Assembly (NCBI GenBank): GCA_964389995.1
Contig: CAYMGN010000002.1
Coordinates: forward strand, 1 to 33,368
Length of the DNA stretch: 33,368 nucleotides
Reading direction: 5' to 3'
DNA from: an uncultured Candidatus Peribacteria bacterium
GTDB lineage: Bacteria > Patescibacteriota > Gracilibacteria > UBA1369 > LOWO2-01-FULL-3
Every line of letters begins with the position of its first letter. Position 1 is the stretch's first letter. Both the position numbers and the translations under genes were made by a program. Shown here piece by piece: positions 1,327 through 28,348 of the stretch. The notes below the pieces were generated by a model that worked only from the letters and a program-made list of their open reading frames with translations, did no database searches and was not told the origin of the DNA.

Positions 1327-1692
1327 TCAACCGATCAAGCCCTTCACCCGCTGTGCCAACTCTTTAGGAGGCATGTTCAGTTTGACATAGAATTCTTCGG
1401 CGCCGGCGGTGGGGGTCGCTTTTTTGAGTTCGGGGCTGCTGAAATTTGAGAGGATTATTACTTTTGCCTGGGGGAATTTTGCTTTTAAGTCAGTGATGAG
1501 GTCGAGGCCTGAGGTTTTGTTGTCGCCGAGATCAAGATCGAGGATAAATAGGCTTGGATCTTGATCATGGGAGAGATTTTTTACTTCTTCTACTTTTTGT
1601 AAGAGTATCACCTGGTCGGCGATGGTCTCGAGATGCTTTTTGTAGAGCTTTCCCAAGACTGTTTCGTCTTCTACTAAGAAAATTTTTGTCAT
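1327..1692 (-). CDS. single-domain response regulator (CheY/Spo0F-like receiver only)
   Basis: 121 aa. Starts IFLVEDE, has the phospho-acceptor context LFILDLDLGD, and has VIILSN plus a later K. There is no output domain. Its start shares base 1692 with the upstream regulator's stop (ATGA-type overlap). Confidence 0.85.
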   Translation of the reverse strand: MTKIFLVEDETVLGKLYKKHLETIADQVILLQKVEEVKNLSHDQDPSLFILDLDLGDNKTSGLDLITDLKAKFPQAKVIILSNFSSPELKKATPTAGAEEFYVKLNMPPKELAQRVKGLIG

Positions 1693-2378
1693 TATTTCTT
1701 TAATATATAGCCTTCTCCCCTAACTGTACGGATCCATTCTATCCCTTCTGACTCGAGCACTCCCCTTAGCGACTGGACAGCTGACCTGAGGTTGCGATTT
1801 TTGGTCGAGGTTGAATGGTCTCCCCAATAATTCTCTATAAGGTAACTCTTTGTCAATAGGGTTTCCGGATTGTTGATAAATAAAGATAAGAGCCTTTTAT
1901 TTTTAGGGGTGAGAGACTTGAGGGGGTGATTTTTATAAAGGAATTGATTTTTTTTTGGCTCGTAGACGAGGCTGGAATAGCTAGTTTCTTGGCTTTTTGC
2001 TTGAGGTTTTGGTGCTCTGCCCCATCTTTTAACCCTAATGGAGAGCTCCCGAGCATTGTAGGGCTTGGATATATAGTCGTATGCACCTAATTCAAAAGCC
2101 CTTTCGAGATATTTGATCGAAGTACAACAGGTGACAAAAATTATCGGAATGTCTACGGATCTTTCTTTCATCTGTTTGCAAAGCTCCAAGCCGTCTAAAC
2201 TGTCTGCGCCAAGCATGATATCGATGAGGGCGATGTGATAATCTTTATTGAGTAGCTTACCCCAACTTTCCTCATAGTTCGTGGCAATCGATACGAAACA
2301 GTGGCTAAATGAGTCCTCAATAATTTTTTTCAAAGACTGGGCCACCAGGAGCTCGTCTTCGACGATTAATACGTTCAT
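1692..2378 (-). CDS. OmpR/PhoB-family response regulator (receiver + winged helix)
   Basis: Receiver motifs: NVLIVEDE, IALIDIMLG, IPIIFVT, DYISKP. The C-terminal winged-helix signature is LTPKNKRLLSLF...IRTVRGEGYIL. Confidence 0.9.
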   Translation of the reverse strand: MNVLIVEDELLVAQSLKKIIEDSFSHCFVSIATNYEESWGKLLNKDYHIALIDIMLGADSLDGLELCKQMKERSVDIPIIFVTCCTSIKYLERAFELGAYDYISKPYNARELSIRVKRWGRAPKPQAKSQETSYSSLVYEPKKNQFLYKNHPLKSLTPKNKRLLSLFINNPETLLTKSYLIENYWGDHSTSTKNRNLRSAVQSLRGVLESEGIEWIRTVRGEGYILKK

Positions 2379-2457
2379 TTATGAAAAATTTATGACAACT
2401 CTTTGGTATATTATTGATTTTGTTTTAATTTATAAAGGAGTGCGTTAGAATTCTGCC

Positions 2458-3015
2458 ATGATTGAAAATAAGGATCACCTGCAGCATTTTTTATTTAATA
2501 TTTTGACGATATTAAATTCTTACGTTGCTGATTTAGGAGATTCGGAGGATAAAGAGACAATCACTAACCTGATCCAAGCGGTAGTCTTGATAGTGGCTCA
2601 TGAGGATTTTTTGCTCGATAGAAAGACAAAAATCGTGGCTGAGGAGTTTCAGATCGGAGAATTACTAGAACTCTTAGTAGATATCTATGGCAAAGAATCT
2701 GTAAAAGTTAATTATGCCAATAAAGATCAAAAAATCAAAATCGGAAAGTATTATTTCTGGGAAGCCTTGAAACAGCTTGTGGCTTGCTTACTGCGCCATA
2801 ATGAAAGTATAGAAATAAAGTATAGCGATCATCAGCTGCATATTGCCGCAAAAGTACCTGAGTCCGCTATGAATACAGAGGCTGAGCTTTCTAAAATTCT
2901 CAAAACGAGCTTAGCTTTGGATATGACTTTTCAATGTTGTGTGGCTTTGACCATTTTCAAGAAAATTGCCAAAGGGCTGGAAGTGAAAAATGATAAAGTT
3001 GTCATTTTTTTGTAA
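2458..3015 (+). CDS. histidine-kinase-core-like protein with degenerate ATP-binding boxes (possible Spo0B/ChpT-like phosphotransferase or pseudokinase)
   Basis: 185 aa. A two-helix N-terminus carries His residues (DHLQHFLFNILTILNSY; ITNLIQAVVLIVAHEDF). It is followed by a CA-like layout (EFQIGELLELLVDIYG ... EALKQLVACLLRH ... IEIKYSDHQLHIAAKV ... VVIFL) but has no N, DxGxG or GxGxG boxes. Confidence 0.4.
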   Translation: MIENKDHLQHFLFNILTILNSYVADLGDSEDKETITNLIQAVVLIVAHEDFLLDRKTKIVAEEFQIGELLELLVDIYGKESVKVNYANKDQKIKIGKYYFWEALKQLVACLLRHNESIEIKYSDHQLHIAAKVPESAMNTEAELSKILKTSLALDMTFQCCVALTIFKKIAKGLEVKNDKVVIFL

Positions 3016-3025
3016 TACCTATATG

Positions 3026-3060
3026 TAAATAACTTTATTAGGATGTTGTAAAGTTATTTA
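3026..3060. promoter_or_regulatory. perfect 12-bp inverted repeat (TAAATAACTTTA-N11-TAAAGTTATTTA) just upstream of the soluble kinase gene
   Basis: Arms at 3026-3037 and 3049-3060 are exact reverse complements. The element lies in the 52-bp gap between genes 2458-3015 and 3068-3997. Confidence 0.35.
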
Positions 3061-3067
3061 TGATGAG

Positions 3068-3997
3068 ATGTTAGAATTGAATAAAACAACTGACCCTACT
3101 GAACTTTCGTCTGAAAGCAATGAATTTGTGCATGATCTGCGCAATTTGATGGGGCTGATACAGTTTGTGTTTAACGTGCATGGATCCGAACTTGATGGTG
3201 TGCCGAGACTTAAAGCCTTGAAAGAAAAATATGATGATATTTGTGATTTGATCAGGGAAACTAATGCGGGGCCGAGTTTGAGACTGGCGGCGCTGGCTAT
3301 TGTCCAAGAAGCAAATGTCATCTGCCACGAATTAGATGAAATCATGCTAGAAATAGTGGAAACAAGAGAAACTGATTTAAGAGGACATGAGATTGTAGTG
3401 AGATGTCTGAAGTATTTTAGAGAAACACTTGAGGCTTATAAGGATGAGAAAGAAAATGTGGCGGAGATAGCCTGCTCTTCTTTTCTTGAATGTTTTACCA
3501 AGTGTTTGAGAAACTACTTTGAGTATCAAGGTATCACGCTTTCTTTTCGAGATTTTACAGATGGAGAATTAACAACGATCTCGATGCCGGAGCTGGCATT
3601 GTTTAATATCATTTTAGAATTAGTGAGGAATGCTGCTGACTCTATCGAATTAGCGGAGATAGGTGACGGGATGGTGGAAATTGAGCTGAGAAGAGCTTCA
3701 GGGGATTTTGCTCTGCCTGGAGTGTCAGTTTTGATCAGAGACAATGGCCACGGGATCAGTAATGGCTTTGAAGACTATATTTTTAAACGAGGAGCTACCA
3801 CTAAATTAATGGGTACTGGTAAAGGCCTAGCAATGATCAGAGATATTCTCAATAAGTATGGAGGGCAAATTAGCTTGATCTCTAATTCACGACGGGGAGC
3901 TGTTTTTGAAATATTCTTTTTGCAACCAGATGACGTTGAAAATCTAATGACTGATTGTAACGAAGTGATGCTATCTATGATTGCTGAGGAGGAGTGA
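3068..3997 (+). CDS. cytoplasmic sensor histidine kinase (no transmembrane segments)
   Basis: H-box FVHDLRNLMGLI, N-box ILELVRNAADS, G1 IRDNGHGI, and G2 GTGKGLAMIRDILNKYGGQISL followed by GAVFEIFF. Confidence 0.85.
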   Translation: MLELNKTTDPTELSSESNEFVHDLRNLMGLIQFVFNVHGSELDGVPRLKALKEKYDDICDLIRETNAGPSLRLAALAIVQEANVICHELDEIMLEIVETRETDLRGHEIVVRCLKYFRETLEAYKDEKENVAEIACSSFLECFTKCLRNYFEYQGITLSFRDFTDGELTTISMPELALFNIILELVRNAADSIELAEIGDGMVEIELRRASGDFALPGVSVLIRDNGHGISNGFEDYIFKRGATTKLMGTGKGLAMIRDILNKYGGQISLISNSRRGAVFEIFFLQPDDVENLMTDCNEVMLSMIAEEE

Positions 3998-6107
3998 TTT
4001 TTTTTGGGAGGGTAATGATAAATACTGCTCCTTGGTGCTCATTGTCCTCGATGGAGATTTGGCCGCCGTGGGCCTCAATGATTTTTTTGCAGATGAAGAG
4101 CCCCATCCCGATGCCTTTGCCTTTGCCAATGCTAGAATTTCCGGTGGAAAATTTGTTAAAAATTTCGGTTTTTTCTTGGTCAGGGATCCCTCTACCATTG
4201 TCAATGATGCGGATTTCAAGATCTGAGGGAGTTTCAGTTAACTTGAGGGCGATTTTAGCGTGATTTTCCGGTGTGAATTTTGCGGCGTTGGTCAGGAGAT
4301 TGAGGCATACCTGGCGCATTTGGTCGAGATCGATGGATATTTCTCTAATGCTGATATCGGAATGAAAACTAAATGTAAGCCCTTTGCGCTGGGATTGGAG
4401 CTGAAAGCCGTGGAAGATTTTTTGGAAGAAAGCTTCCGGATTAACCGGACTGAGATGGAGATTGATTTTGTTGAGGTCATACTTTTCGACATCGAATAGC
4501 TTTTGGCTGAGATTTTTGAGGGCGTCGAGGGACTCAAGGACTGTTTGTAGTTCTGTTTGGACCTCGGATACGTGTTCGTGACTATCGATGATATCGATCA
4601 ATTGAAACAGCGCGATGCTAAGCGGAGTGCGAAATTCGTGTGAGGTAACGGCAATAAAATCGCTTTGTTGTTTGACCAGTTGTTCGATGTCCTTGATCTT
4701 ATTTTTTAATTCTTGAGTCTTTTGATTGATGATGTTCTTCATAATGTTGTTTTCTTGCTCGAGATTCTGCTTGATGAGGATATTCATCCAGGAAACTTCG
4801 AGATGAGTTTTGACTTTTTTGATTTCATCGATTTCTTCTAATGAATAAGCGGCGCCATCGGATTTTTCGCCGAGGAGAAATAGTCCGATCAACCTGTTTT
4901 CCGTAAAAAGTGGAGTGCAGATTTCGGCTTTGAGCATCTTCATTTTTACGGAGAGTATTTTTTTGAAGGGGTCTGAGAGTTTGAGATATTGGATTTCTTT
5001 CTTCACTAGTAATGGGGTTTTTGAGGTTTTGAGAATTTCAGTGAACTCGTCGTCTTTGTATTGGGGAATATTCATTTCTAGAGTTTGTTTGCGGACAGAA
5101 AAAATTTCGGCGCGGCTGAGATGGAGTTTTTGGATAAAGCTTTCTTCGATCAAGCTTTGGAGGGATTCGTAAGTCTTGCAGTGATAGGCGCGGATGCAGA
5201 CTTCGACCACAGTGTTTTTAAATTCTTGCACTCCCCTACCGGTAAACTTCGGTAAATTTTGAAAAATGATGTAAGTGAGGATAAGGGAAATGACACTGCT
5301 GACGATAAATGAGAGTCTTTCACTCAAAAAAGATTCGGTGAGGGAGATTAATAAAATTTCTGAGGCTAAAAATGCGGTGATGAGGATGAGGTACATCAAG
5401 GCGTTGAGAGCGAGTGTGGAAAACTCGAAAAAGCGGAATTTGCGGATAGCGATAAAGGTGGGGACGCTGAAAAATAACAGTGAGACCACTACTTCTGACT
5501 GGAGGATGAAAATGTTAAATAGAGGCAAAATCACGTTGATAACCATGGCAAAAATATAGAAGGCAAAAAATCCAGTTGCGGCCATGGAGATTTTTTTGCG
5601 ATCGATGCCTTGAGTTTTGATGATCTTGTAGATGGCAATGACGACGGCAATAGCGAGATGAATCAAAATATAAATACCATACAGAGGATGCATGGGACCT
5701 AAAATGTCAGCTACCCAAATGCCGTCTTCGATGATCTGTTCCTCCAAAACCAGAGGTGTAAAAGTGGTGAGGATGAAGAAAAGGGCGTAAAACAATAGCA
5801 GTGGATAGCTAAGCTTTTTGGGCCATTTGAAGGTTTTTTTGGGGAAGAAATAGAAGAATATAGGGACGCAGATGGGGATCAAGGTGGATAAACCATAGGC
5901 CAAGCGGCCAAAAACGAATGAAAGTTGGGGGTAGATGCCGGGCGTAAAAAGTGAAATGTAGAGTGAAAGTGCCCACAAAGAACCAAAGAGACAGAAAAAG
6001 AAAAAGGTCTGATTGCTTCTTTTTTTGTGATTGGCAGAGAGGGTGATGATCCCTAAGAGGAAACTGATCAGTGCGGAAATGCCAAACAGGATGGTTAGAT
6101 AGAGCAT
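3975..6107 (-). CDS. polytopic membrane sensor histidine kinase
   Basis: 710 aa. The N-terminal ~290 aa contain multiple hydrophobic helices, followed by a central GAF-like region. H-box VTSHEFRTPLSIA, N-box LLTNAAKF, G1 IIDNGRGIP, G2 GKGIGMGLFICKKIIEAHGGQISI. Its 3' end overlaps the convergent kinase gene by 23 bp (3975-3997). Confidence 0.9.
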   Translation of the reverse strand: MLYLTILFGISALISFLLGIITLSANHKKRSNQTFFFFCLFGSLWALSLYISLFTPGIYPQLSFVFGRLAYGLSTLIPICVPIFFYFFPKKTFKWPKKLSYPLLLFYALFFILTTFTPLVLEEQIIEDGIWVADILGPMHPLYGIYILIHLAIAVVIAIYKIIKTQGIDRKKISMAATGFFAFYIFAMVINVILPLFNIFILQSEVVVSLLFFSVPTFIAIRKFRFFEFSTLALNALMYLILITAFLASEILLISLTESFLSERLSFIVSSVISLILTYIIFQNLPKFTGRGVQEFKNTVVEVCIRAYHCKTYESLQSLIEESFIQKLHLSRAEIFSVRKQTLEMNIPQYKDDEFTEILKTSKTPLLVKKEIQYLKLSDPFKKILSVKMKMLKAEICTPLFTENRLIGLFLLGEKSDGAAYSLEEIDEIKKVKTHLEVSWMNILIKQNLEQENNIMKNIINQKTQELKNKIKDIEQLVKQQSDFIAVTSHEFRTPLSIALFQLIDIIDSHEHVSEVQTELQTVLESLDALKNLSQKLFDVEKYDLNKINLHLSPVNPEAFFQKIFHGFQLQSQRKGLTFSFHSDISIREISIDLDQMRQVCLNLLTNAAKFTPENHAKIALKLTETPSDLEIRIIDNGRGIPDQEKTEIFNKFSTGNSSIGKGKGIGMGLFICKKIIEAHGGQISIEDNEHQGAVFIITLPKKITPPQQS

Positions 6108-6114
6108 TGCTCAA

Positions 6115-6143
6115 AGAGTAGAGCGGGAGCGGCCGCTAGTCAA
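6115..6143 (-). promoter_or_regulatory. candidate internal promoter for the sensor kinase gene (TTGACT-N17-TACTCT); only 7 nt separate the -10 from the ATG
   Basis: On the minus strand, -35 TTGACT = 6138-6143, the spacer is 17 nt, and -10 TACTCT = 6115-6120. The start codon is at 6107-6105. This implies a leaderless or near-leaderless transcript. Confidence 0.3.
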
Positions 6144-6155
6144 TAGCGCTCAATC

Positions 6156-6176
6156 TATTTGTCACTATTTTGTCAC
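6156..6176 (-). repeat. tandem direct repeat GTGACAAAATA / GTGACAAATA (minus-strand sense) spanning the stop codon of the SET-fusion gene
   Basis: Plus-strand tatttgtcac (6156-6165) is directly followed by tattttgtcac (6166-6176). The repeat lies 13-33 nt upstream of the candidate -35 for the kinase gene. Confidence 0.6.
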
Positions 6177-7706
6177 TTCCTGAGGTTGTCGGCGAAATTT
6201 TTCCTTAGGTAAGCTGATGAGATCGGCAAAAGTTCTGAGTGAGCCGAGCATGATGGTGTAGTGTTCGCTGAGGGATCCGGGGACTTCGATGAGGCCTGCT
6301 CTCTTGACGATGTTTTGAAATCTGGATCCTTGCTCTGCTTCTCCGATGACGGCGAGGTTGTCCTTGATATCATCGGGGATGGAGTCCATGAAATTTTGCA
6401 ACATGATCGGGAGATAGCCTGTACGGCGGATTTTGGGACTGGTGATGGAGCAATTGTAGAGAAAAACTTGGCCATCGGGAGTGATATCGGGGCCTTGGTA
6501 GCTTTTTGAGGTGTCGATTCTTTCCTTAATGCTTTGATAAAATTGGTTGAAGTCTCGTTCGTACTGAGGATCTTGAGTGGCGGTATAGGCGTAGGGATGG
6601 CCCCATTCTTCGGAGTGGAAGGCTTCTCGTAAGGTGCGGACATTGCCAAAGCTAATGCCGAGGATTTCGGCTGTGTCTTGATCTCGGAGGAGAGTGACGA
6701 TTGCTTTGTCTAGGAATTTTTGTCTGAGCTTTTCGTGGGTTTTGTCCGGGTCCATTACGAGGACCATTGGCTCCTTACAGCAAGGGCAATCGGGAATCAT
6801 CGGCGAAAAATCGATTACCTCTATGGGGATGTCTTGTCCGCTATTGGCGTAAACGTCTTTTGCTGAGAAGCGCATTCCTTCTGGTTTTGTGCTGTCGCAA
6901 GGGGGGCAGGTGACGTAATTGAGCCAATCATTGCTAAAGGTGAGACGGAAAAAATCGGAGATTTCTCTGATTGCGCTTTCGTCCAGGGGTGAGTAGAGAG
7001 TTTCTATCCTTGCTTTGGGGATTGGTTTTTCTGCTGTTTGCTGGAGAGGATCGGTATCTTCCTTGATCCAGTTGAGAGTGTATGGGGCGTATTCTGAGCG
7101 GATATGCTCTGGCAAATCTCGATAGGCCGTTACTGTGCCTCGACAACGCGGAGAGCCACATTTGCAATCTTGCATCTGCCAGTTGCTGTTTTCGGACATG
7201 GCATAGTCCCAACAGATTTCTTCGCCGGGTTTGATTTCGCGTCTGGTGACGATGGCTACGGCATTATCTGGCAGTCCTGGGACACGGTAGCCATCGACTA
7301 AGCCGCAGTTGGGGTCGCAGGAATGATTGATTTGTTCTGCGAGGCCATGGTGGAGGGCGAAGCTGTCAGGGCCATTTTGTACTACCCGGTCTATGAGCCA
7401 GGTCCAGCCCAGGGATTGAATGTCTTCTGCTCTAAATGTTTGGCCGTACTGGGGATCAAAGGCGGCGATTAATTCTCCGGGGTTGATTTTTTCGTGGGCG
7501 AAGACGCCGATGCCTTTTTCTGGACTTTGTTTGATGGTAGCTTTGGGGTTATCGAGGGGGTGGGGGCGGTATTCGATGTGACTAGAGTTTAGCTGCATCA
7601 GTAAGCGTTGGCTGAGGAGAGCAGATAAATTCTTAGTTTCTTCATCGTTTCGCTCGGATGCGGATTCTGATGATCTTTCAACTTCGTAAGTTGTTTGTTC
7701 TTCCAT
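6165..7706 (-). CDS. SET-domain methyltransferase fused to a ~280-aa C-terminal GNAT-like domain carrying a four-Cys cluster
   Basis: SET signatures: GIGVFA, INHSCDPNC, EEICWDY, and the post-SET motif CKCGSPRCRG (residues ~57-192, nt ~7131-7538). The C-terminal part (nt ~6168-7004) has CPPC ... CPCC and a GNAT-like strand/helix pattern (VFLYNCSITSPKIRRTGYLPIMLQNF ... FQNIVKRAGLIEV). Confidence 0.8.
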   Translation of the reverse strand: MEEQTTYEVERSSESASERNDEETKNLSALLSQRLLMQLNSSHIEYRPHPLDNPKATIKQSPEKGIGVFAHEKINPGELIAAFDPQYGQTFRAEDIQSLGWTWLIDRVVQNGPDSFALHHGLAEQINHSCDPNCGLVDGYRVPGLPDNAVAIVTRREIKPGEEICWDYAMSENSNWQMQDCKCGSPRCRGTVTAYRDLPEHIRSEYAPYTLNWIKEDTDPLQQTAEKPIPKARIETLYSPLDESAIREISDFFRLTFSNDWLNYVTCPPCDSTKPEGMRFSAKDVYANSGQDIPIEVIDFSPMIPDCPCCKEPMVLVMDPDKTHEKLRQKFLDKAIVTLLRDQDTAEILGISFGNVRTLREAFHSEEWGHPYAYTATQDPQYERDFNQFYQSIKERIDTSKSYQGPDITPDGQVFLYNCSITSPKIRRTGYLPIMLQNFMDSIPDDIKDNLAVIGEAEQGSRFQNIVKRAGLIEVPGSLSEHYTIMLGSLRTFADLISLPKEKFRRQPQEVTK

Positions 7707-7717
7707 AATAAATTTGG

Positions 7718-8959
7718 TTAAGTGTATGCGATGATTTGTGGGGGCTCAATGGAGTTGAAATTGCTGCGCTGGCTGTGCATGTAGGCGCCGGCATTACGGA
7801 TGCGGAGTTTGTGTTTTTTGGGGTCAATGTTGCTGCTGAGAGTGACAATACCGAGATGGTCGCCGGAGTCACAGGTGGGGCCGTAAAGTTTGTAGGGAAT
7901 AGCAGGAGCCTCTTGTTGGCCATGAGCGTCTAAAACTTCGATGTTGTATTGCCATCCGTGGACGGCATAATCGCTAAACGAACCGAAGACTCCATCGGAG
8001 AGATAGAGGACTTCTTGTCCGTTTCTGGTTTCTTTTGCGAGGATGGGAACGATTAATTCGATGGAATTTGCTACTAGGGCTCGACCGAGTTCGATGATCA
8101 GCTTGTGGTCATTTCTAAGACCATCGGGCAGTCGTCGTTTGAGTTTTCTGAGCGATTGGTTAATCACTTGCATGTACTGACTTAGATCATAGTTTTCATG
8201 TTCGAAATAGCTGACAGGGATGCCGCCGCCGACGTTGATACTGCCTAAAGACGGCGATTTTTCTGCGACGTCGATGATTTTGTCGATGGCGCTGGAGTAG
8301 GTTTGTGGTGATGAATTTTGAGAGCCGGTGTGGACTGAGATCCCTGGGGTTAGCCCTTCGGAAGCAATATAACGAATCATTTTGACGACAGATTCTGGAG
8401 TAGCGCCGTATTTGCTGGAAAGATTGATCCCGGCGGCGGAATTGTTGGTGGCCATTCTGACTGCTATTTCCAGATTTCTGGCTGTGTCGTATGGAGAAAC
8501 AGCAGCGATGATTTTGTTAATTTCGGTTTGAGTTTGAGCGGTAAAATGGTCTACATCATAATCTTCGGAGGCGCGATGAATATCTTTGGCTTTTTTGATC
8601 GGGTGATTAAACAAGATCTTGGCTGCGGGGGCGAGCTTTCTGATGAGGTCAATCTCGCCAAGAGAGGCACAGTCAAAAGCGTCGATGCCTTCTTGATAAA
8701 GAGTTTGGACGATGAGCTCGAGAGGGTTGGCTTTGACGGCGTAGGCGACGAGTGCTCTTTCATCTTCGGGCAAGAATTGTTCCTTATAGAAACGTGCTGT
8801 TTGGCGGAGTTTGTTGAGATCGAGGAAGTAGAAAGGGTCTTCAGCGTTCATTACATCACTGTAAGCTTCCTGAATTGCTTGCTCGCGACCGATGCCCTCG
8901 AGTAATTCTGGGGATTGAGGGTCGTTTTGGAGTTGTGGTTGATAGTCCAATCTAGGCAT
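7718..8959 (-). CDS. fold-type III PLP-dependent ornithine/lysine decarboxylase (Orn/DAP/Arg decarboxylase family)
   Basis: PLP-lysine motif AYAVKAN, then FDCASLGEI, HTGSQ, NVGGGIPVSY and YGPTCDSGD. 413 aa. It lies 11 bp upstream of the SET-fusion gene on the same strand. Confidence 0.85.
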   Translation of the reverse strand: MPRLDYQPQLQNDPQSPELLEGIGREQAIQEAYSDVMNAEDPFYFLDLNKLRQTARFYKEQFLPEDERALVAYAVKANPLELIVQTLYQEGIDAFDCASLGEIDLIRKLAPAAKILFNHPIKKAKDIHRASEDYDVDHFTAQTQTEINKIIAAVSPYDTARNLEIAVRMATNNSAAGINLSSKYGATPESVVKMIRYIASEGLTPGISVHTGSQNSSPQTYSSAIDKIIDVAEKSPSLGSINVGGGIPVSYFEHENYDLSQYMQVINQSLRKLKRRLPDGLRNDHKLIIELGRALVANSIELIVPILAKETRNGQEVLYLSDGVFGSFSDYAVHGWQYNIEVLDAHGQQEAPAIPYKLYGPTCDSGDHLGIVTLSSNIDPKKHKLRIRNAGAYMHSQRSNFNSIEPPQIIAYT

Positions 8960-9000
8960 TCAATATTTTTTATTGATATGCCAAAAACACTAATCCCCCA

Positions 9001-9022
9001 ACTGTCGGAAAACTGTCGGAAA
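9001..9022 (-). repeat. perfect tandem 11-bp direct repeat (plus strand ACTGTCGGAAA x2; minus sense TTTCCGACAGT x2) upstream of the decarboxylase gene
   Basis: Copies at 9001-9011 and 9012-9022 are identical. They lie in the 73-bp gap between the regulator stop (9033) and the decarboxylase start (8959), abutting a weak -35 (TTGGGG, 8996-9001) with a -10 TATCAA (8973-8978) at 17-nt spacing. Confidence 0.7.
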
Positions 9023-9032
9023 ATCAGTGATT

Positions 9033-9722
9033 TTATTCTGGAAGATTGATCTGGTAGCCGACCCCATGTACGGATTGGATGGTTTTATATTCAAAATCGG
9101 AGTCGATTTTTTTTCTTAATCTTTTGATTGTAGAAGGAACGACATTTGAGTGATATCCAGGCTTTGATTTCCAGATTTTTTGGAGAATTTCTTCAGTGGG
9201 GACGGCGTTGCCATGTTGTTCGACCAGAAGTTGGAGGATTTTTGTTTCGCGATTCGAAAGAGTGATGTCTTTACCGGATCTAGTTACTTTATTTTGCTGC
9301 CAGTAAAAGGCGAAATCGCCGATTTTTTCTACTCTTTGGGCGATAGAATAGCGGCGGCTGATGGCATTGATACGAGCCAAAAGTTCGGAATCATTAAAAG
9401 GTTTTGTGAGGTAGTCATCTACGCCTTTATTTAAAAGATTGATTTTGATATCGACCTGACTGATACCGCTAAGGACGAGGATGGGTATATTGATATGCTT
9501 TTTACGGAGGTGGAGGACTAGATTATCTCCCGATCGGCCGAGTAAAATAAGATCCAGTAAAAGTATATCTACTTTAGGAAAATTTGGTTTTTTGATGACG
9601 TCTTCGACTGAGGAGTATTGATTGACTTGATGGCCATGACTTTTCAGGACCTTTTCGAGCCTTTCTGACTGAGACTGATCATCTTCTACTAGAAGTATTT
9701 TCACGATGTCATATTTTATCAA
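9033..9722 (-). CDS. OmpR/PhoB-family response regulator
   Basis: KILLVEDD, ILLLDLILLG, IPILVLSG, DDYLTKP, and the C-terminal winged helix LSNRETKILQLL ... IQSVHGVGYQI. The track start is the TTG at 9722. The GTG at 9704 (VKILLVEDD) is a more typical N-terminus. Confidence 0.9.
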   Translation of the reverse strand: MIKYDIVKILLVEDDQSQSERLEKVLKSHGHQVNQYSSVEDVIKKPNFPKVDILLLDLILLGRSGDNLVLHLRKKHINIPILVLSGISQVDIKINLLNKGVDDYLTKPFNDSELLARINAISRRYSIAQRVEKIGDFAFYWQQNKVTRSGKDITLSNRETKILQLLVEQHGNAVPTEEILQKIWKSKPGYHSNVVPSTIKRLRKKIDSDFEYKTIQSVHGVGYQINLPE

Positions 9723-9787
9723 ATAGAACCACTGGCGCTGCCCGGGCTGGACTGAGGTGGCTGAAAATTTTGTAACTGACTAGTTGT

Positions 9788-9816
9788 AGTGTATTTTACT
9801 GGTCTTTTGATGTCAA
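9788..9816 (-). promoter_or_regulatory. candidate sigma70-type promoter for the regulator-decarboxylase-SET-kinase block (TTGACA-N17-TACACT)
   Basis: On the minus strand, -35 TTGACA = 9811-9816, the spacer is 17 nt, and -10 TACACT = 9788-9793. Confidence 0.4.
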
Positions 9817-15201: not shown

Positions 15202-16062
15202 TTGTTTATGTTAGAAAAAATCCAAGAATTAAAAGTAGAGTTTGAGAAATTGCGTCAGGGTAAAGAATCTTTGTTGCGATTGATTAGTGAAGCGGAGTTG
15301 CCGGAGAGTGTTTATAATTCTAATGCGATCGAAAACTCGACTTTGACGATCAAGGAAACGGAAAAAATCTTGATGGAATTGGAGGTTACGAGGAATGTTT
15401 CATTGAGAGAAGTTTTTGAGGCGAAAAATTTGGCGCGGGTGAGTGAATATATTGCAGAAAAGGCAAAAACTGAGGAGTTGGACTGCGAGCTGATCCTCTT
15501 GCTGCATAAAATGCTAATCACTAATATCGAGGACGAAATTGCCGGGAGATATCGAGAGACGGGAGAATACGTGAGAGTGGGGACCTACATTGAGCCGGCA
15601 CCGGAAAAGGTGGCAGGGATGATTGAGGGGGCGATTATTGAGTATCGCAGCGCTATTGATCAATCTTTCATCAAAAAAATTGCGCGTTTTCATTTAGAAT
15701 TTGAGCATATTCATCCTTTTTTGGATGGCAATGGGCGGATTGGGCGGATTTTGATTAATTTTCAATTATTGAGACTGGGGTTTCCGCCTTTGATCGTGAG
15801 AAATAAAGAAAAGCAGGACTACTATGATTGCTTTAAAGAATACGAAAAAAATGGTGCGACGAAGAGAATGGAAAAAATTTTGACCTTGGCACTTTTAGAG
15901 TCATTTCACAAGAGAATTGCCTATTTGAAGGGGCAAAAAATCATCAAGGTGAGTGAGTATGCAAAAAATGTCGAGCGCTCGCTGCCGGCTTTGCTCAATG
16001 CTGCCAAAAGACAGACGATAGCGGCTTTTAGGGAAAAGAATGTTTGGATGATTGGTGTTTAG
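15202..16062 (+). CDS. Fic-domain protein (AMPylase family) with an N-terminal inhibitory motif and a C-terminal HTH-like tail
   Basis: Fic motif HPFLDGNGRIGR at nt 15712-15747. Inhibitory-type motif SNAIEN, i.e. (S/T)xxxE(G/N), at nt 15319-15336. The C-terminus VSEYAKNVERSLPALLNAAKRQTIAAFREKNVWMI resembles excisionase/MerR-type HTH_17. The likely start is the ATG at 15208. Confidence 0.9.
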   Translation: MFMLEKIQELKVEFEKLRQGKESLLRLISEAELPESVYNSNAIENSTLTIKETEKILMELEVTRNVSLREVFEAKNLARVSEYIAEKAKTEELDCELILLLHKMLITNIEDEIAGRYRETGEYVRVGTYIEPAPEKVAGMIEGAIIEYRSAIDQSFIKKIARFHLEFEHIHPFLDGNGRIGRILINFQLLRLGFPPLIVRNKEKQDYYDCFKEYEKNGATKRMEKILTLALLESFHKRIAYLKGQKIIKVSEYAKNVERSLPALLNAAKRQTIAAFREKNVWMIGV

Positions 16063-16077
16063 CGTTATCAGTGTATA

Positions 16078-16728
16078 ATGTGGATAAAAACAATGGCTAT
16101 GAAAAAGTTTTTTATTTTAATTTCGTTGCTGAGTTTTGCGGCCTGTTCTGCCTCGAACAATGATTCCGAAAAGGTTGAGGATCTTGATCTACCTGAAGAA
16201 GAAGCGGTGGCTGCTCCGGAAGTTTCGCTGGAGATTGGTGAAGAAAAAGAGCAAAGCGATGTCCGGGAAGATGGTCCAGAGAGCTTGGAGGAAAGCTTTT
16301 ATGCGCTTCCTGATCAGTATTTTATGGCGCCGCTGACTGAGGAGGAGAGGCAAGAGGCGATTGTGGTTTTGGATCCGGACAACTATTATCTAGAGTTTCA
16401 GCCGCGGATGTGGGATGGGAGTGGGAGTTTTGCGATTTTTATTGATCCGGATGGAGACTATCTCTATGCCTTGGAGACCAAAGGGTGTGGGCCGATTTGT
16501 GAGCAGGAATTGTATTTTTTGCAGTGGATGGAGGGGAGTTTTGTGGATGTGACAGAGCAATACTTGCCGACGGAGTTGGATCTGAGTCCACCGGCGGCCG
16601 ATGCTGAGTTTGCGCCTTTGTTTGTGCTCCCGCAGTTTGGTACGCGGATTGAAGTGATCAATCAGTATGATCAGGAAGTTTTGGCGGAGCTGGTTTGGAC
16701 TGGAGGGAGGTTTAGTTTGGAACAATGA
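16078..16728 (+). CDS. acidic lipoprotein of unknown function
   Basis: Signal peptide plus lipobox MKKFFILISLLSFAAC. The likely start is the ATG at 16093 or 16099, because TATAAT at 16074-16079 overlaps the track start. The mature N-terminus is rich in D and E. Confidence 0.7.
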   Translation: MWIKTMAMKKFFILISLLSFAACSASNNDSEKVEDLDLPEEEAVAAPEVSLEIGEEKEQSDVREDGPESLEESFYALPDQYFMAPLTEEERQEAIVVLDPDNYYLEFQPRMWDGSGSFAIFIDPDGDYLYALETKGCGPICEQELYFLQWMEGSFVDVTEQYLPTELDLSPPAADAEFAPLFVLPQFGTRIEVINQYDQEVLAELVWTGGRFSLEQ

Positions 16729-17363
16729 ATAAATTTCTTAAAATAGTGAGTTCGGATTTACTTGAGCTTGGTGGGGGTGGGAGCGGTAGTTTGCTAGTTT
16801 TTGTGCCGGTGGCTTTGCTGTTATTGGTGATTTGTATTTATTTCGTTTTGATTGGGATGATGGCGAAAAATATTAAGGTCAAGACACTAAAAAGTGATCA
16901 ATGGAGGATTTTTAAGCAGTTGCGTCTGGCGGCTTTGGAGCAAAATCCCAGTTCTTTTGGGGAGAGTTTGGCGGAGGCGAGGCGGCTGAGTGATGGAGAA
17001 TGGCAAGCTAGAGCGCAAAAGTCGGTGGATGAGCAAGAAAGAGATACTTTGCTGGCATTTGCATCATGGGAGGCGGTGGGGATGATTTTTGTTTTTTTGA
17101 AGGAAGGGAGAAAAGTGGGGTCATTTGGTGGATTGTGGGTGAAAAAAGATTTTAGGCGCAAAGGAGTGGGCGAACAATTGGTAAAAAAAGCACTGGCTTG
17201 GCTCAAAGATGCCGGGGCGAAGGAAGTGACTTTTTGGAATAATGCGGAAAATGAGGCTTCGACTAGTCTCTATCAAAAATTAGGATTTCAGGAAACTGGC
17301 GACCAGAAGCCGCTCGATTCTGATCCCAGTAAGTTGATTAAATTGATGAGGAAGGAGATTTGA
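16725..17363 (+). CDS. GNAT-family N-acetyltransferase, possibly with an N-terminal membrane anchor
   Basis: Acetyl-CoA loop and helix: LWVKKDFRRKGVGEQLVKKALAWL ... SLYQKLGFQETG. The long form starts in an ATGA overlap with the lipoprotein stop and adds a hydrophobic helix (LLVFVPVALLLLVICIYFVLIG). An alternative start is the ATG at 16857. Confidence 0.8.
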   Translation: MNKFLKIVSSDLLELGGGGSGSLLVFVPVALLLLVICIYFVLIGMMAKNIKVKTLKSDQWRIFKQLRLAALEQNPSSFGESLAEARRLSDGEWQARAQKSVDEQERDTLLAFASWEAVGMIFVFLKEGRKVGSFGGLWVKKDFRRKGVGEQLVKKALAWLKDAGAKEVTFWNNAENEASTSLYQKLGFQETGDQKPLDSDPSKLIKLMRKEI

Positions 17364-23591: not shown

Positions 23592-23614
23592 GGAGGATTG
23601 TTTCGTGAATAAAT

Positions 23615-27040: not shown

Positions 27041-28348
27041 GTGAGATGGGCAAAAAAAGCGAAAAATAATTTTTTGGTAAATGTGTTGGCTGGCTTTAGT
27101 GTAAGCTTTTTAGTTTTGAGTTTGGGGGCGGTTTTTGGGGTGATTTCGGGGCGTGGGGCCTTTATCGGGATGGTTTCGGCGGTGATTATGTCTTTGGTGA
27201 CGGCGATTTTGAGTGGGACGAAGCTCCAGGCGACCTCTCCTACCGGCCCGATGACAGCGACGTTAGTGGCGGTGATGGCGCAGGGTGAGACGACGATGAT
27301 AGAAGGTTTTAGCAGTGCGCAATTTATAAATTTTAGTTTGATCTTTGCGGGGGTTTTGCTTTTGTTGGCGGGGATATTAAAGATCAATCGTTTGATTAAG
27401 TATGTGCCAAACATTGTGATTTCCGGGTTTATGACTGGTGTTGGTCTGCTGATTGCCTATAAGGAGATTAAGTTTATATTTGGGTTTGGTGGTGTAGAAG
27501 CCGTGGGAGGGCCATTGGAATCAAATTTGGTAGTGGTGATTTGTACTTTGATTATTGCTTTTATAGCTAGCCTCTACCTGCAAAAAGCCAGTCATCCTTA
27601 TTGGAAGTATCTGCCGCCGACTTTGCTGGTGATCATCTTGAGCAGCGTGGCGGTTTATGTTTGGGGAGTTAATGAAGTTGTAGAATTAGTCTCGATTGGA
27701 TCAGGTGATGGAGAGCAGTTTGCGTTAAAAAGTTTTCTTGCTGATCAAATACCACCTTTTATCAGTTTAGAGGTTATCTGGAAGGCTTTGCCACTGGCGC
27801 TGGAAATCGCCATTATCGCCTATCTAGATACCTTGATGACGGCAATGGTGATAGAAAGAATGACGAAAGAAAAAGCGGATCATCGCAAAGATCTCTATGC
27901 CCAAGGTTTGGCCACGGGAATTATTGGTTTGATCGGTGGGATCCCCGGAGCTCAGTCTACTGTGCCCTCGGTGATGCTAATTAATGAAGGTGCCACTAAG
28001 AGGATTGCGGCGATCTCAGTGGGGGTATTTACTTTATTGGGCTTGGTGGTTTTGAGGGATTTGATTGGTTTGATCCCGCAGGCGGTGTTTATCGGGGTGG
28101 TGATCAAGATTGCCTATGATGTTTCCGATCCCCTACCGTTTTTGCTTTTTTGGAAAAAGAAGGGAGTGAGTTTGGGACAAATTGTTTTTCTCACGGGGAT
28201 TATCCTCACTACGATTTTTTGGAGTCTCAATGTGGCGGTGATAGGTTCGACTGTGATCTATCTCTTATGGCCAAAGATAAGCGGAAAACCACTGATAAAA
28301 GATCTAAAATTAGAGACGCAATCAGAGGGGACTTTGGACGAAATGTAG
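27041..28348 (+). CDS. SulP-family anion transporter (no STAS domain)
   Basis: LAGFSVSFLVLSLGAVFGVISG ... GTKLQATSPTGPMTA is characteristic of the Sulfate_transp core. About 11 hydrophobic helices. GTG start; the N-terminus is uncertain. Confidence 0.7.
   Translation: MRWAKKAKNNFLVNVLAGFSVSFLVLSLGAVFGVISGRGAFIGMVSAVIMSLVTAILSGTKLQATSPTGPMTATLVAVMAQGETTMIEGFSSAQFINFSLIFAGVLLLLAGILKINRLIKYVPNIVISGFMTGVGLLIAYKEIKFIFGFGGVEAVGGPLESNLVVVICTLIIAFIASLYLQKASHPYWKYLPPTLLVIILSSVAVYVWGVNEVVELVSIGSGDGEQFALKSFLADQIPPFISLEVIWKALPLALEIAIIAYLDTLMTAMVIERMTKEKADHRKDLYAQGLATGIIGLIGGIPGAQSTVPSVMLINEGATKRIAAISVGVFTLLGLVVLRDLIGLIPQAVFIGVVIKIAYDVSDPLPFLLFWKKKGVSLGQIVFLTGIILTTIFWSLNVAVIGSTVIYLLWPKISGKPLIKDLKLETQSEGTLDEM

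What the first reader, a model, noticed from the sequence alone, without database searches (positions are those of the whole stretch)
3975..9816. A two-component system is split by a decarboxylase + SET-fusion gene pair in one co-directional block
On the minus strand the order is OmpR-type regulator (9722-9033), fold-type III ornithine/lysine decarboxylase (8959-7718), SET/GNAT-like fusion (7706-6165), then polytopic sensor kinase (6107-3975). The gaps are only 73, 11 and 57 bp.

Regulator and kinase genes are normally adjacent. Here they bracket an amine-forming enzyme and an amine-modifying enzyme, which suggests one regulated functional unit.

Hypothesis (inference): cadaverine or putrescine made by the decarboxylase mimics a lysine side chain. 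It could therefore be N-methylated by the SET domain and N-acylated by the GNAT-like domain, giving a signal-controlled modified polyamine. I do not know of a described pathway with this architecture. The alternative is that the fusion modifies protein lysines and the linkage to the decarboxylase is only regulatory.
Basis: partly seen in the sequence, partly recalled or inferred. Interest (0 to 1): 0.72.

Follow-up and report, generated by a model that had tools for sequence, protein, structure and literature searches.

The report
Sensor-linked operon for tailored diamines
A candidate-phyla (Patescibacteria) bacterium carries a conserved operon in which a lysine/ornithine decarboxylase, a fusion of a SET methyltransferase with a previously undescribed acetyltransferase-like domain, and a membrane sensor kinase travel together behind a conserved regulator-binding site, which points to regulated synthesis of an acylated, methylated diamine that may be a signal; no enzyme activity has been tested.

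Summary
The four minus-strand genes, their domains and the 73, 11 and 57 bp gaps are all as described.

**Conservation.** The arrangement recurs in about 14 independent Patescibacteria-type loci, although the proteins are only 27-56% identical.

**What the core is.** The constant core is not "regulator ... kinase". It is a Lys/Orn-type fold-III decarboxylase, then a ~300-aa domain X, then a 7TM-GAF-like histidine kinase.
- X matches no Pfam or NCBIfam model. Its AlphaFold model is GNAT-fold, close to amine and polyamine N-acetyltransferases.
- The SET domain is an add-on found in one subclade, in either domain order.

**Fusions of X family-wide.** X is fused to:
- SET or to Rossmann-type methyltransferases;
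- decarboxylases of at least two unrelated folds;
- decarboxylase, X and SET together in single ~940-aa proteins.

This argues for one small-molecule pathway: amino acid to diamine to N-acyl, N-methyl diamine. It argues against protein-lysine modification.

**Regulation.** A tandem 11-bp-spaced repeat (TTTTCCGACAG x2) lies about 42 nt upstream of the decarboxylase start. It is conserved in five other loci and looks like an OmpR-type operator.

**Open questions.** I cannot tell whether the product is a self-made signal read by the kinase or a regulated metabolite. No chemistry has been tested. SET methylation of a free small molecule has one precedent, BurB.

The parts
9788..9816 (-). Promoter-like site (TTGACA-17-TACACT) upstream of the regulator gene
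   Evidence: 10 of 12 matches, the best-scoring site in the 9.7-kb region scanned. This is a consensus match only.
9033..9722 (-). OmpR/PhoB-family response regulator RR1. The true start is probably the GTG at 9704.
   Evidence: Pfam Response_reg 74 bits and Trans_reg_C 69 bits. Sequence read. Orthologues flank the operator in L003 and L012 and lie divergent from it in L010, L093 and L098.
9000..9022 (-). Tandem direct repeat TTTTCCGACAG x2 with an 11-bp period, ending 42 nt upstream of the decarboxylase ATG. Putative OmpR-type operator.
   Evidence: The pattern CGAC-N7-CGACRR occurs once in the window (0.13 expected). It also occurs exactly once in each of L001-L004 and L012, always just upstream of the decarboxylase gene.
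7718..8959 (-). Fold-type III PLP decarboxylase of the Lys/Orn (ODC/LDC) group
   Evidence: Pfam. PDB 2plj 129 bits and 5gjm 122 bits, against at most 76 bits for DAP decarboxylases. The PLP-Lys, HxGS, GGG, ExGR, DGxxGSF, CDSxD and GAY motifs are conserved in 13 X-linked decarboxylases.
7119..7568 (-). SET methyltransferase domain with post-SET Cys cluster (aa 47-196 of the fusion)
   Evidence: Pfam SET 48.4 bits, cutoff 22.4. NHSCDPNC, WDY and CxCGSxxCxG are invariant in 8 orthologues. Best PDB sequence hits are MLL1 and ASH1L; the hit to BurB is weak.
6168..7070 (-). Domain X (aa 213-513): an undescribed GNAT-fold domain with an inserted Cys4 zinc-ribbon-like motif (CPPC...CPCC, about 6777-6908)
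   Evidence: No profile hit. AF2 pLDDT 88.7. Foldseek PDB: all top hits are GNAT, with E 2e-5 and probability 1.0. There are 250 representative clusters in 1.84 billion proteins. A motif-A-like WNCxxxxPxxRGxG lies at strand 201-210 / helix 219-230.
6158..6177 (-). Second 11-bp-period tandem repeat (AGTGACAAA x2), spanning the fusion's stop codon and upstream of the kinase gene. Significance uncertain.
   Evidence: Not seen at the same place in related loci.
3975..6107 (-). Sensor histidine kinase. About 9 hydrophobic segments with very short loops (aa 1-286, including HisKA_7TM), a GAF-like middle region (about aa 300-470), HisKA with H-box HEFRTPL, then HATPase_c.
   Evidence: Pfam. Hydropathy. 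Weak GAF hits, and Pfam GAF in distant homologues. Orthologues lie directly downstream of X in 12 independent loci.
3068..3997 (+). Convergent HATPase_c protein, overlapping the kinase 3' end by 23 nt. Part of a conserved accessory signalling set.
   Evidence: Pfam HATPase_c 51 bits. A similar convergent HATPase gene is present in L004.
2458..3015 (+). 185-aa protein with only a faint His_kinase hit, conserved next to RR2
   Evidence: Homologue in L003. Genes of similar size sit at the same place in L002, L004 and L098.
2377..2398 (-). Third 11-bp-period tandem repeat (TTGTCATAAAT / TTTTCATAAAT) between the divergent RR2 and the 185-aa gene
   Evidence: It resembles the TTTTCATAA x2 repeat upstream of the decarboxylase in L010 and a TGACA x2 repeat at the same junction in L003.
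1692..2378 (-). Second OmpR-family regulator RR2
   Evidence: Pfam. Orthologues at 39-46% identity lie convergent after the kinase in L001, L003 and L004.
1327..1692 (-). Single-domain receiver (REC) protein
   Evidence: Pfam. Orthologues lie after the kinase in L001, L003, L004, L010, L092 and L098.

Best explanation
The block is a conserved Patescibacteria operon that makes a tailored diamine under two-component control.

**Proposed pathway**
1. The fold-III decarboxylase converts lysine or ornithine to cadaverine or putrescine. The enzyme type is shown; the substrate is inferred.
2. The GNAT-fold X domain N-acylates one amine. The fold is shown; activity and acyl donor are inferred.
3. The fused SET domain N-methylates the other, lysine-like amine with SAM. 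This step is inferred.

The order of steps is open. SET could act on free lysine before decarboxylation, or on N-acyl-cadaverine, which is chemically a decarboxylated peptidyl-lysine.

**Proposed regulation**
- The 7TM-GAF-like kinase gene sits in the same operon.
- The operon is preceded by a conserved tandem-repeat operator of the kind OmpR/PhoB regulators bind.
- Kinase to regulator signalling would therefore set the level of both the enzymes and the kinase itself, forming an autoregulatory loop. The operator's conservation is shown; the binding protein and the sign of regulation are inferred.

The kinase is a dedicated partner of the enzymes. It senses either their product or a cue that demands it.
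For: **Synteny.** Decarboxylase-(SET)X-kinase recurs in:
- L001, L003, L004 and L012, with SET;
- L010, L096 and L098, with X alone;
- L093, L095 and L011, as decarboxylase-X at contig ends;
- L092 and L099, as X-kinase.

**Reverse test.** Two kinase homologues chosen only by kinase similarity (32-34% identity) both lie directly downstream of X.

**Specificity.** Among 79 generic SET-gene loci, none has an adjacent decarboxylase or X.

**Fusions.** Of 49 long X-family proteins:
- 21 carry SET;
- about 10 carry class-I methyltransferase domains;
- 4 carry fold-III decarboxylase;
- 4-7 carry fold-I OKR_DC_1, and 2 also hit Pyridoxal_deC;
- P0137 and P0151 are decarboxylase + X + SET in one chain.

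Both domain orders exist, SET-X and X-SET.

**Non-homologous replacement.** In L008 the decarboxylase is a different fold.

**Independent SET link.** A Lys/Orn-oxygenase-SET fusion lies beside a decarboxylase, a deoxyhypusine-synthase-like gene and an arginase-family gene.

**Active sites look intact.** Decarboxylase catalytic and distal-amine-binding motifs are conserved. SET catalytic motifs are intact. X is GNAT-fold and nearest to amine and polyamine N-acetyltransferases.

**Operator.** It is conserved in 6 loci at a constant position.

**Precedent.** BurB, a SET-domain enzyme, methylates free methionine (PMC12542666).
Against: - No biochemical or expression data exist. Substrate, acyl donor and methylation state are unknown.
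- The X domain gives no sequence-level GNAT match. Its fold neighbours also include protein N-terminal acetyltransferases and tRNA acetyltransferases.
- Two loci (L005, L006) have X-SET + kinase without an adjacent decarboxylase; L006 has ATP-grasp ligases there instead.
- L008 has decarboxylase + X-SET without a kinase.
- No exporter or importer is encoded in the block.
- The window has two OmpR regulators, so which one binds the operator, and which one pairs with the kinase, is unresolved.
- Context sampling covers roughly 15 loci out of about 250 family clusters.
Confidence: 0.65

Rival explanations
1. Autoinducer circuit, a sharper version of the best explanation. The acyl-methyl-diamine is a self-produced signal. 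The co-transcribed 7TM-GAF kinase is its receptor, and the operator closes a positive feedback loop, as in quorum-sensing operons.
For: - The enzyme-kinase adjacency is more constant than the kinase-regulator adjacency.
- The kinase has about 9 membrane segments with almost no loops, which suits an intramembrane or amphiphilic ligand.
- The operator is conserved and occurs once per locus.
- A distant 7TM-GAF homologue (L100) lies immediately after an acyl-CoA ligase and an alpha-oxoamine synthase of the BioF/Kbl/CqsA family. This is the layout of CqsA/CqsS.
Against: - No ligand data exist.
- No exporter is encoded.
- A cationic short-acyl product would not cross membranes freely.
- L100 is a single example and could be lipid synthesis.
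- The GAF-like cytoplasmic domain could equally sense an internal metabolite.
- L008-type clusters have the enzymes without a kinase.
Confidence: 0.3
2. Regulated polyamine homeostasis or stress protection. The two-component system senses an envelope, pH or osmotic cue and switches on diamine synthesis. Acylation and methylation neutralise, store or retarget the diamine, in the manner of SpeG or of compatible-solute pathways.
For: - X is structurally closest to spermine/polyamine and arylalkylamine N-acetyltransferases.
- The nearest solved decarboxylases are housekeeping Lys/Orn decarboxylases.
- One relative comes from a saline-lake MAG (L012).
- A mechanosensitive-channel gene and a sulfate permease gene lie nearby in the window and in L001/L006.
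Against: - It does not explain why the kinase gene is locked to the enzyme genes while regulator positions vary.
- It does not explain why methyltransferases of two folds are repeatedly fused to X.
- A quaternary or secondary amine cation is a poor compatible solute.
Confidence: 0.25
3. Protein-modification reading. SET and X are a lysine methyltransferase / acetyltransferase pair acting on proteins, for example signalling proteins, nucleoid proteins or host proteins. The decarboxylase would be linked only by regulation.
For: - All characterised SET enzymes except BurB methylate protein lysines, and the best PDB sequence hits are histone methyltransferases.
- X's fold neighbours include NatD, Naa60 and GCN5.
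Against: - X is covalently fused to decarboxylases of several folds and forms decarboxylase-X-SET single chains.
- SET is replaced by small-molecule-type Rossmann methyltransferases.
- SET is absent from many otherwise identical operons.
- Generic SET genes show no such neighbourhood.
Confidence: 0.08
4. The decarboxylase is an ordinary LysA (diaminopimelate decarboxylase) serving lysine synthesis, and its neighbours are coincidental.
For: The top NCBIfam model by score is lysA.
Against: - That score of 154 is about half the lysA cutoff of 298.
- Lys/Orn decarboxylases score much higher than DAP decarboxylases in PDB.
- The ODC-type DGxxGSF and CDSxD motifs are conserved.
- Gene order is conserved across about 14 loci.
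Confidence: 0.02

Closest known systems
CqsA/CqsS (Vibrio) and LqsA/LqsR/LqsS (Legionella) alpha-hydroxyketone quorum sensing
   Same: A PLP-dependent signal-synthase gene sits next to a polytopic membrane histidine kinase that reads the product. The regulator's position is variable or distant. Acyl-CoA and SAM feed the chemistry (my own knowledge). A distant homologue of this kinase family lies behind an alpha-oxoamine synthase that partly matches the CqsA model.
   Different: There is no homology between the synthases: here a fold-III decarboxylase + GNAT-like + SET, there a fold-I alpha-oxoamine synthase. The predicted product is an amide/amine, not a hydroxyketone. Receptor function is untested.
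Diamine-tailoring steps of hydroxamate siderophore pathways (DesA-DesB-DesC of desferrioxamine; the putrebactin, bisucaberin and alcaligin analogues)
   Same: Decarboxylase makes cadaverine or putrescine, one amine is modified, and a GNAT-type enzyme N-acylates it, all from clustered genes (my own knowledge). A Lys/Orn N-oxygenase-SET fusion exists among this SET's relatives.
   Different: There is no N-monooxygenase and no IucA/IucC-type synthetase here. Methylation takes the place of hydroxylation. The decarboxylase fold differs. The cluster is embedded in a two-component system rather than being iron-regulated.
BurB, the SET-domain methionine S-methyltransferase of Burkholderia (PDB 9l4t; PMC12542666)
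   Same: A bacterial SET-domain enzyme that methylates a free small molecule within a biosynthetic pathway.
   Different: Similarity is weak and partial (30 bits over aa 128-202). BurB performs S-methylation of methionine. It is a stand-alone 180-aa protein with no GNAT-like partner.
SpeG / SSAT and the insect arylalkylamine, polyamine and spermine N-acetyltransferases (e.g. PDB 5yag, 4fd6, 5k9n)
   Same: GNAT fold. These are among the nearest structural neighbours of X and acylate primary amines of polyamines.
   Different: There is no detectable sequence similarity. X is about 100 residues larger, with a Cys4 insertion and its own motifs (FFRxxFxN, HDPxxT, EWxNPxxY). The acyl donor is unknown.
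agrBDCA and comQXPA type operons of Gram-positive bacteria
   Same: Signal-maturation genes and a polytopic histidine kinase share one autoregulated operon, and regulator-binding direct repeats sit at the promoter (my own knowledge).
   Different: Those signals are ribosomal peptides. No precursor-peptide gene is seen here.
PhoB/OmpR-type operators (pho boxes)
   Same: Two direct repeats with an 11-bp period placed just upstream of, or overlapping, the -35 position (my own knowledge).
   Different: The half-site sequence (TTTTCCGACAG) is unrelated to the pho box. Binding has not been tested.

Membership tests
OmpR/PhoB-family response regulator (9033-9722) | N-terminal receiver domain plus C-terminal winged-helix Trans_reg_C domain | tested here: met
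   Pfam 74.1 and 68.8 bits, both above cutoff. No NCBIfam equivalog cutoff is reached, so there is no named orthologue.
Class I sensor histidine kinase with HisKA_7TM sensor (3975-6107) | HisKA_7TM membrane region, H-box dimerisation domain and HATPase_c | tested here: met
   HisKA_7TM 36 bits (cutoff 28.6) and HATPase_c 97 bits. HisKA at 24.1 bits is just under its 26.9 cutoff, but the H-box HEFRTPL is present. About 9 hydrophobic segments.
Fold-type III basic amino acid decarboxylase, ODC/LDC group | PLP-lysine, HxGS, GGG, ExGR, catalytic Cys-Asp (CDSxD) and DGxxGSF distal-amine-binding motifs | tested here: met
   Both Pfam domains score above cutoff. All motifs are present and conserved in 13 homologues. 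Best solved relatives are Lys/Orn decarboxylases. The functional meaning of the motifs comes from my knowledge of ODC structures.
LysA (diaminopimelate decarboxylase) equivalog | Score at or above the TIGR01048 trusted cutoff | tested here: not met
   154 bits against a cutoff of 297.9. DAP decarboxylase structures score at most 76 bits, against 129 for Lys/Orn decarboxylase.
SET-domain methyltransferase | SET fold with the NHSxxPN SAM-binding motif, catalytic Tyr in ELxxDY/WDY, and a post-SET Cys cluster | tested here: met
   Pfam SET 48.4 bits, cutoff 22.4. N127-H128-S129-C130, Y168 and C181/C183/C188 are invariant.
SET-domain protein lysine methyltransferase (functional class) | Methylates the epsilon-amine of a protein lysine | not testable with these tools
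GNAT superfamily (domain X) | Sequence match to a GNAT profile | tested here: not met
   No Pfam, NCBIfam or PDB sequence hit for 14 family members at E up to 10.
GNAT superfamily (domain X) | GNAT fold, with a beta4 / loop / alpha3 acyl-CoA pyrophosphate-binding motif (Q/RxxGxG/A) | tested here: met
   Foldseek gives 49 PDB hits with E<=1e-3; the listed top hits are all GNAT-fold, with TM (target-normalised) up to 0.65. PxxRxxG follows strand 201-210 and precedes helix 219-230. CoA binding itself is untested.
BurB-type small-molecule SET methyltransferase | Full-length similarity to BurB | tested here: not met
   Only 30 bits over 75 residues, weaker than the match to MLL1 at 43.6 bits.
CqsA/CqsS-type quorum sensing | Alpha-oxoamine-synthase-family autoinducer synthase adjacent to its sensor kinase | tested here: not met
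   The window holds no Aminotran_1_2 gene. Only the layout is analogous. An AOS + kinase pair exists at the distant homologue L100.
NIS hydroxamate siderophore cluster (DesABCD-like) | N-monooxygenase and IucA/IucC synthetase genes beside the decarboxylase and acyltransferase genes | tested here: not met
   Neither family is found in the window's ORFs.

The most novel reading that the evidence does not exclude
Domain X and the SET domain, together with the decarboxylase, make a new class of bacterial signal: an N-acyl, N'-methylated cadaverine or putrescine. The co-transcribed 7TM-GAF kinase reads it, and the signal feeds back through the CCGACA operator. This would be the first autoinducer-type circuit described in Patescibacteria (CPR). 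It would also be the first SET-domain enzyme that N-methylates a free amine.
Probability: 0.3. Interest if true: 0.88.

Novelty: new variant of a known kind. Interest (0 to 1): 0.72.

Why it matters
- **A new enzyme family.** X is a sizeable GNAT-fold family with no profile in Pfam or NCBIfam: about 250 clusters at 50% identity. Its recurrent fusions define a three-step amine pathway of decarboxylation, acylation and methylation that I could not find described.
- **A wider role for SET domains.** The pathway would move SET domains, the textbook histone-lysine methyltransferases, into small-molecule amine chemistry. The only precedent is S-methylation by BurB.
- **A testable circuit in unculturable bacteria.** Patescibacteria are uncultured, reduced-genome, largely symbiotic bacteria, and I know of no described signalling molecules from them. 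Here the enzymes, receptor kinase, regulators and operator all sit within 8.5 kb. That gives a compact system for heterologous expression and for asking how these cells sense themselves or their hosts.

Tried and rejected
1. **Broad X-domain profile in the word-indexed protein search (A2).** It returned only 6 hits and cost one of three searches.
2. **Genome-collection scan with the full-length alignment.** The patterns came from the SET motifs, so 79 of 80 loci were generic SET genes. These served only as a negative control for neighbourhood, plus one true relative (L012). The window's own genome was not returned.
3. **Locus scans with broad X alignments.** The narrower alignment A5 gave 5 loci.
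4. **Full-length AlphaFold model of SET-X.** pLDDT was 71 and pTM 0.55, with the SET half poorly modelled, so it says nothing about domain packing and was not used.
5. **Sequence searches of X against PDB and Pfam.** Only noise came back (APH(2''), zinc ribbons).
6. **Rfam scan of the window.** It found no riboswitch or other RNA.
7. **Literature searches.** I searched for SET + GNAT + decarboxylase, for SET + polyamine and for HisKA_7TM. No description of this system turned up, and HisKA_7TM appears only in census papers.
8. **LysA reading.** Rejected.
9. **The 6158-6177 repeat upstream of the kinase as a conserved second operator.** It is not conserved in relatives.

Full report
**1. Observation**

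The gaps are 73, 11 and 57 bp.

Pfam assigns the following:
- Regulator: Response_reg + Trans_reg_C.
- Second gene: Orn_Arg_deC_N + Orn_DAP_Arg_deC.
- Fusion: SET at aa 65-168.
- Kinase: HisKA_7TM + HisKA + HATPase_c.

The C-terminal 300 residues of the fusion, called domain X below, match nothing in Pfam or NCBIfam, nor any PDB sequence.

The regulator most likely starts at the in-frame GTG at 9704, giving MKILLVEDD. A promoter-like TTGACA-17-TACACT lies at 9816-9788. No convincing terminator separates the four genes. Rfam finds nothing in the window.

**2. The decarboxylase**

It is not LysA. The lysA model scores 154 bits against a cutoff of 298. The best solved relatives are the Vibrio vulnificus and Selenomonas Lys/Orn decarboxylases at 129 and 122 bits, followed by eukaryotic ODCs. 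DAP decarboxylases reach at most 76 bits.

The following motifs are present and conserved in 13 decarboxylases linked to domain X:
- the PLP lysine (AVKANP);
- HTGSQ, GGG and ExGR;
- the ODC-type DGxxGSF and CDSxD motifs;
- GAY.

From ODC structures (my own knowledge), the two Asp residues hold the substrate's distal ammonium group. The enzyme should therefore act on a basic amino acid and release a diamine.

**3. The fusion protein**

The SET half keeps every catalytic signature. NHSCDPNC, the WDY tyrosine and the post-SET CxCGSxxCxG cluster are invariant in eight orthologues.

Domain X was modelled from a 14-sequence alignment, giving pLDDT 88.7 and pTM 0.86. Foldseek against the PDB returned 49 hits at E<=1e-3, and the listed top hits are all GNAT-fold proteins. 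They include:
- insect arylalkylamine, spermine and polyamine N-acetyltransferases;
- the Ebony amine-condensing domain;
- TacT;
- TmcA and NAT10;
- protein N-terminal acetyltransferases.

A PxxRxxG loop between strand 201-210 and helix 219-230 corresponds to the GNAT CoA-binding motif A. The window's X also carries a Cys4 insertion (CPPC...CPCC), which is present in some relatives and absent in others.

**4. Conservation of the arrangement**

The fusion has few relatives: 27 hits in 5.8 billion proteins. The genomic contexts of those relatives and of X-family members are as follows.

| Locus | Source / protein | Arrangement |
|---|---|---|
| L001 (L002: same protein on a second contig) | Candidatus Altimarinota MAG | REC - decarboxylase - SET-X - 7TM kinase |
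| L003 | | decarboxylase - SET-X - kinase |
| L004 | | decarboxylase - SET-X - kinase |
| L012 | Patescibacteria MAG | regulator ... decarboxylase - SET-X - kinase |
| L010 | | regulator (divergent) - decarboxylase - X alone - kinase |
| L096 | | decarboxylase - X - kinase |
| L093, L095, L011 | | decarboxylase - X at contig ends |
| L092 | | X - X - kinase |
| L005, L006 (L007: same protein on a second contig) | | X-SET (reversed domain order) - 7TM kinase - REC, no adjacent decarboxylase; L006 has two ATP-grasp ligases there |

Two controls support specificity:
- **Reverse test.** Kinase homologues picked only by similarity to the sensor half (32-34% identity, annotated Candidatus Peregrinibacteria) again lie right behind X. 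L098 reads decarboxylase - X - kinase - REC, and L099 reads X - kinase.
- **Negative control.** In 79 loci holding generic bacterial SET genes, none has an adjacent X or decarboxylase.

The constant element is therefore decarboxylase / X / kinase. SET is an add-on, and the regulator's position varies.

A second signalling set in the window is also conserved next to the kinase in L001, L003, L004, L010, L092 and L098. It comprises REC 1327-1692, OmpR-type RR2 1692-2378, a 185-aa protein at 2458-3015 and a HATPase protein at 3068-3997.

**5. The X family and its fusions**

A profile search of 1.84 billion representative proteins finds 250 clusters. Most are stand-alone proteins of 270-350 aa. 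Among the 49 longest of the top 150:
- 21 carry SET.
- About 10 carry Rossmann-type methyltransferase domains (Methyltransf_11/25/12/31, UbiE-like). P0145 is X + Methyltransf_25.
- 4 carry the fold-III decarboxylase (P0107, P0064, P0119).
- 4-7 carry the unrelated fold-I OKR_DC_1 decarboxylase (P0150).
- 2 hit Pyridoxal_deC; in P0151, the one checked, the hit falls inside the OKR_DC_1 region.
- P0137 and P0151 (~940 aa) combine OKR_DC_1 + X + SET in a single chain.

In L008 a fold-I decarboxylase gene abuts an OKR_DC_1_C-X-SET gene.

Two different methyltransferase folds, and decarboxylases of at least two unrelated folds, have thus been joined to X repeatedly. That is hard to explain unless the three activities act in succession on one small molecule.

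Independent support comes from another relative of this SET domain. It is fused to a Lys/Orn N-oxygenase and lies beside a fold-III decarboxylase, a deoxyhypusine-synthase-like gene, an arginase-family gene and an EamA transporter. Together these form a polyamine cluster.

SET methylation of a free metabolite has one published precedent. BurB methylates free methionine (PMC12542666). The window's SET is only weakly similar to it.

**6. Regulation**

The 73-bp gap holds a perfect tandem repeat, TTTTCCGACAG x2, with an 11-bp period at 9022-9000. It ends 42 nt before the decarboxylase ATG.

The same repeat, (A/T)4-C-CGAC-A/G-A/G x2, occupies the same position in L001, L003, L004 and L012, and one copy is visible in L096. 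The pattern CGAC-N7-CGACRR occurs exactly once in the window, against 0.13 expected. It also occurs exactly once in each of those loci, always just upstream of the decarboxylase gene. L010 has a different 11-bp tandem repeat (TTTTCATAA x2) at that place.

Tandem direct repeats one helical turn apart are the typical binding sites of OmpR/PhoB regulators (my own knowledge). RR1 orthologues flank this operator in the window, L003 and L012, and lie divergent from it in L010, L093 and L098.

I infer that decarboxylase - SET-X - kinase is a regulator-dependent transcription unit. Because it includes the kinase gene, the circuit would be autoregulatory. Binding, the sign of regulation and the identity of the regulator are all untested.

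**7. The kinase**

It has about nine hydrophobic segments with minimal loops, followed by a region with faint GAF similarity. Distant homologues carry Pfam GAF domains at that position. An HEFRTPL H-box and a full ATPase domain follow. There is no sizeable extracytoplasmic domain, so sensing must occur within the membrane or in the cytoplasm.

One distant homologue (L100) lies immediately downstream of a fatty-acyl-CoA ligase and an alpha-oxoamine synthase of the BioF/Kbl/SPT/CqsA family. That is the layout of the CqsA/CqsS autoinducer system. It is a single case and is suggestive only.

**8. Interpretation**

Best supported (confidence about 0.65): a two-component-controlled operon for a tailored diamine.
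1. Lys or Orn is decarboxylated.
2. One amine is acylated by X.
3. The other amine is methylated by SET.

Two reaction orders are chemically sensible, and I cannot choose between them:
- SET acts on free lysine first. The product remains cationic, so it still suits the decarboxylase's acidic pocket.
- SET acts last, on N-acyl-cadaverine, which mimics a peptidyl-lysine side chain.

The physiological role is also open:
- a self-made signal read by the kinase (about 0.3);
- a stress or homeostasis metabolite (about 0.25).

The protein-modification alternative (about 0.08) is disfavoured by the fusions. The LysA alternative (about 0.02) is disfavoured by sequence.

**9. Novelty**

All the folds are known. 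So are the general ideas of a decarboxylase-acyltransferase amine pathway (DesA-C) and of an operon pairing a signal synthase with a kinase (Cqs, Lqs, agr, com).

The following appear to be new. I found them neither in the libraries searched (Pfam 2025, NCBIfam 2026) nor in the literature held:
- the X family itself;
- the decarboxylase-X-methyltransferase triad;
- a SET domain recruited to it;
- its fixed coupling to a 7TM-GAF kinase with a conserved operator in Patescibacteria.

I rate it a new variant of a known kind, with interest 0.72.

Noticed in passing
window 1-33368: GC skew on the + strand is strongly positive almost everywhere: 0.10 to 0.48 in 1-kb windows, with a single window at -0.01. 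It holds whatever the gene orientation, and the cumulative skew rises monotonically. That is unusually strong and uniform for 33 kb.
   Followed up: no
L100:2924-8229: A distant HisKA_7TM-GAF kinase (23% identical to the window's) lies 1 nt after an alpha-oxoamine synthase (BioF/Kbl/SPT/CqsA family) and a FadD-like acyl-CoA ligase. The layout is CqsA/CqsS-like, in an unrelated MAG.
   Followed up: partly
L097:7829-15785: A Lys/Orn N-oxygenase-SET fusion protein (P0020) lies near a fold-III decarboxylase, a deoxyhypusine-synthase-like gene, an arginase-family gene and an EamA transporter. This is a different polyamine cluster that also uses a SET domain.
   Followed up: partly
window 2377-2398 and 6158-6177: Two further perfect or near-perfect tandem repeats with an 11-bp period. 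TTGTCATAAAT/TTTTCATAAAT abuts the RR2 start in the RR2/185-aa divergent region. AGTGACAAA x2 spans the SET-X stop codon upstream of the kinase gene. The first resembles repeats in L010 and L003; the second is not conserved.
   Followed up: partly
window 1327-3997: A second signalling gene set (REC, OmpR-type RR2, a 185-aa protein with a faint His_kinase hit, and a soluble HATPase protein overlapping the kinase 3' end by 23 nt) is conserved beside the operon in several relatives. This suggests a multi-component phosphorelay rather than a simple pair.
   Followed up: partly
L092:18-1631; proteins P0031, P0033, P0036, P0060: Domain X occurs as tandem duplicates, either as two adjacent genes or as ~600-aa proteins with 2-3 X matches and no Pfam hit where scanned (P0031, P0033, P0060).
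   Followed up: no
proteins P0021, P0027, P0011 (relatives of the SET domain): Other architectures of this SET subfamily: a classical GNAT + SET in the cyanobacterium Dapis, a cytidylyltransferase-like domain + SET, and a SET-SET tandem.
   Followed up: no
window 21624-25780: Two large adjacent ORFs (655 and 721 aa) have no Pfam match. They lie upstream of a GtrA/GT2 glycosyltransferase gene.
   Followed up: no
window 15202-17363: A Fic/DOC-family gene is followed by a 216-aa ORF with no Pfam match and then a classical GNAT acetyltransferase. This could be a toxin-antitoxin-like or AMPylation module.
   Followed up: no
window 27041-29969 vs L001:1365-4263: The sulfate permease - PurE - PurK gene string is syntenic between the window and the Altimarinota MAG contig that carries the related operon. 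This is consistent with a shared Patescibacteria ancestry.
   Followed up: no
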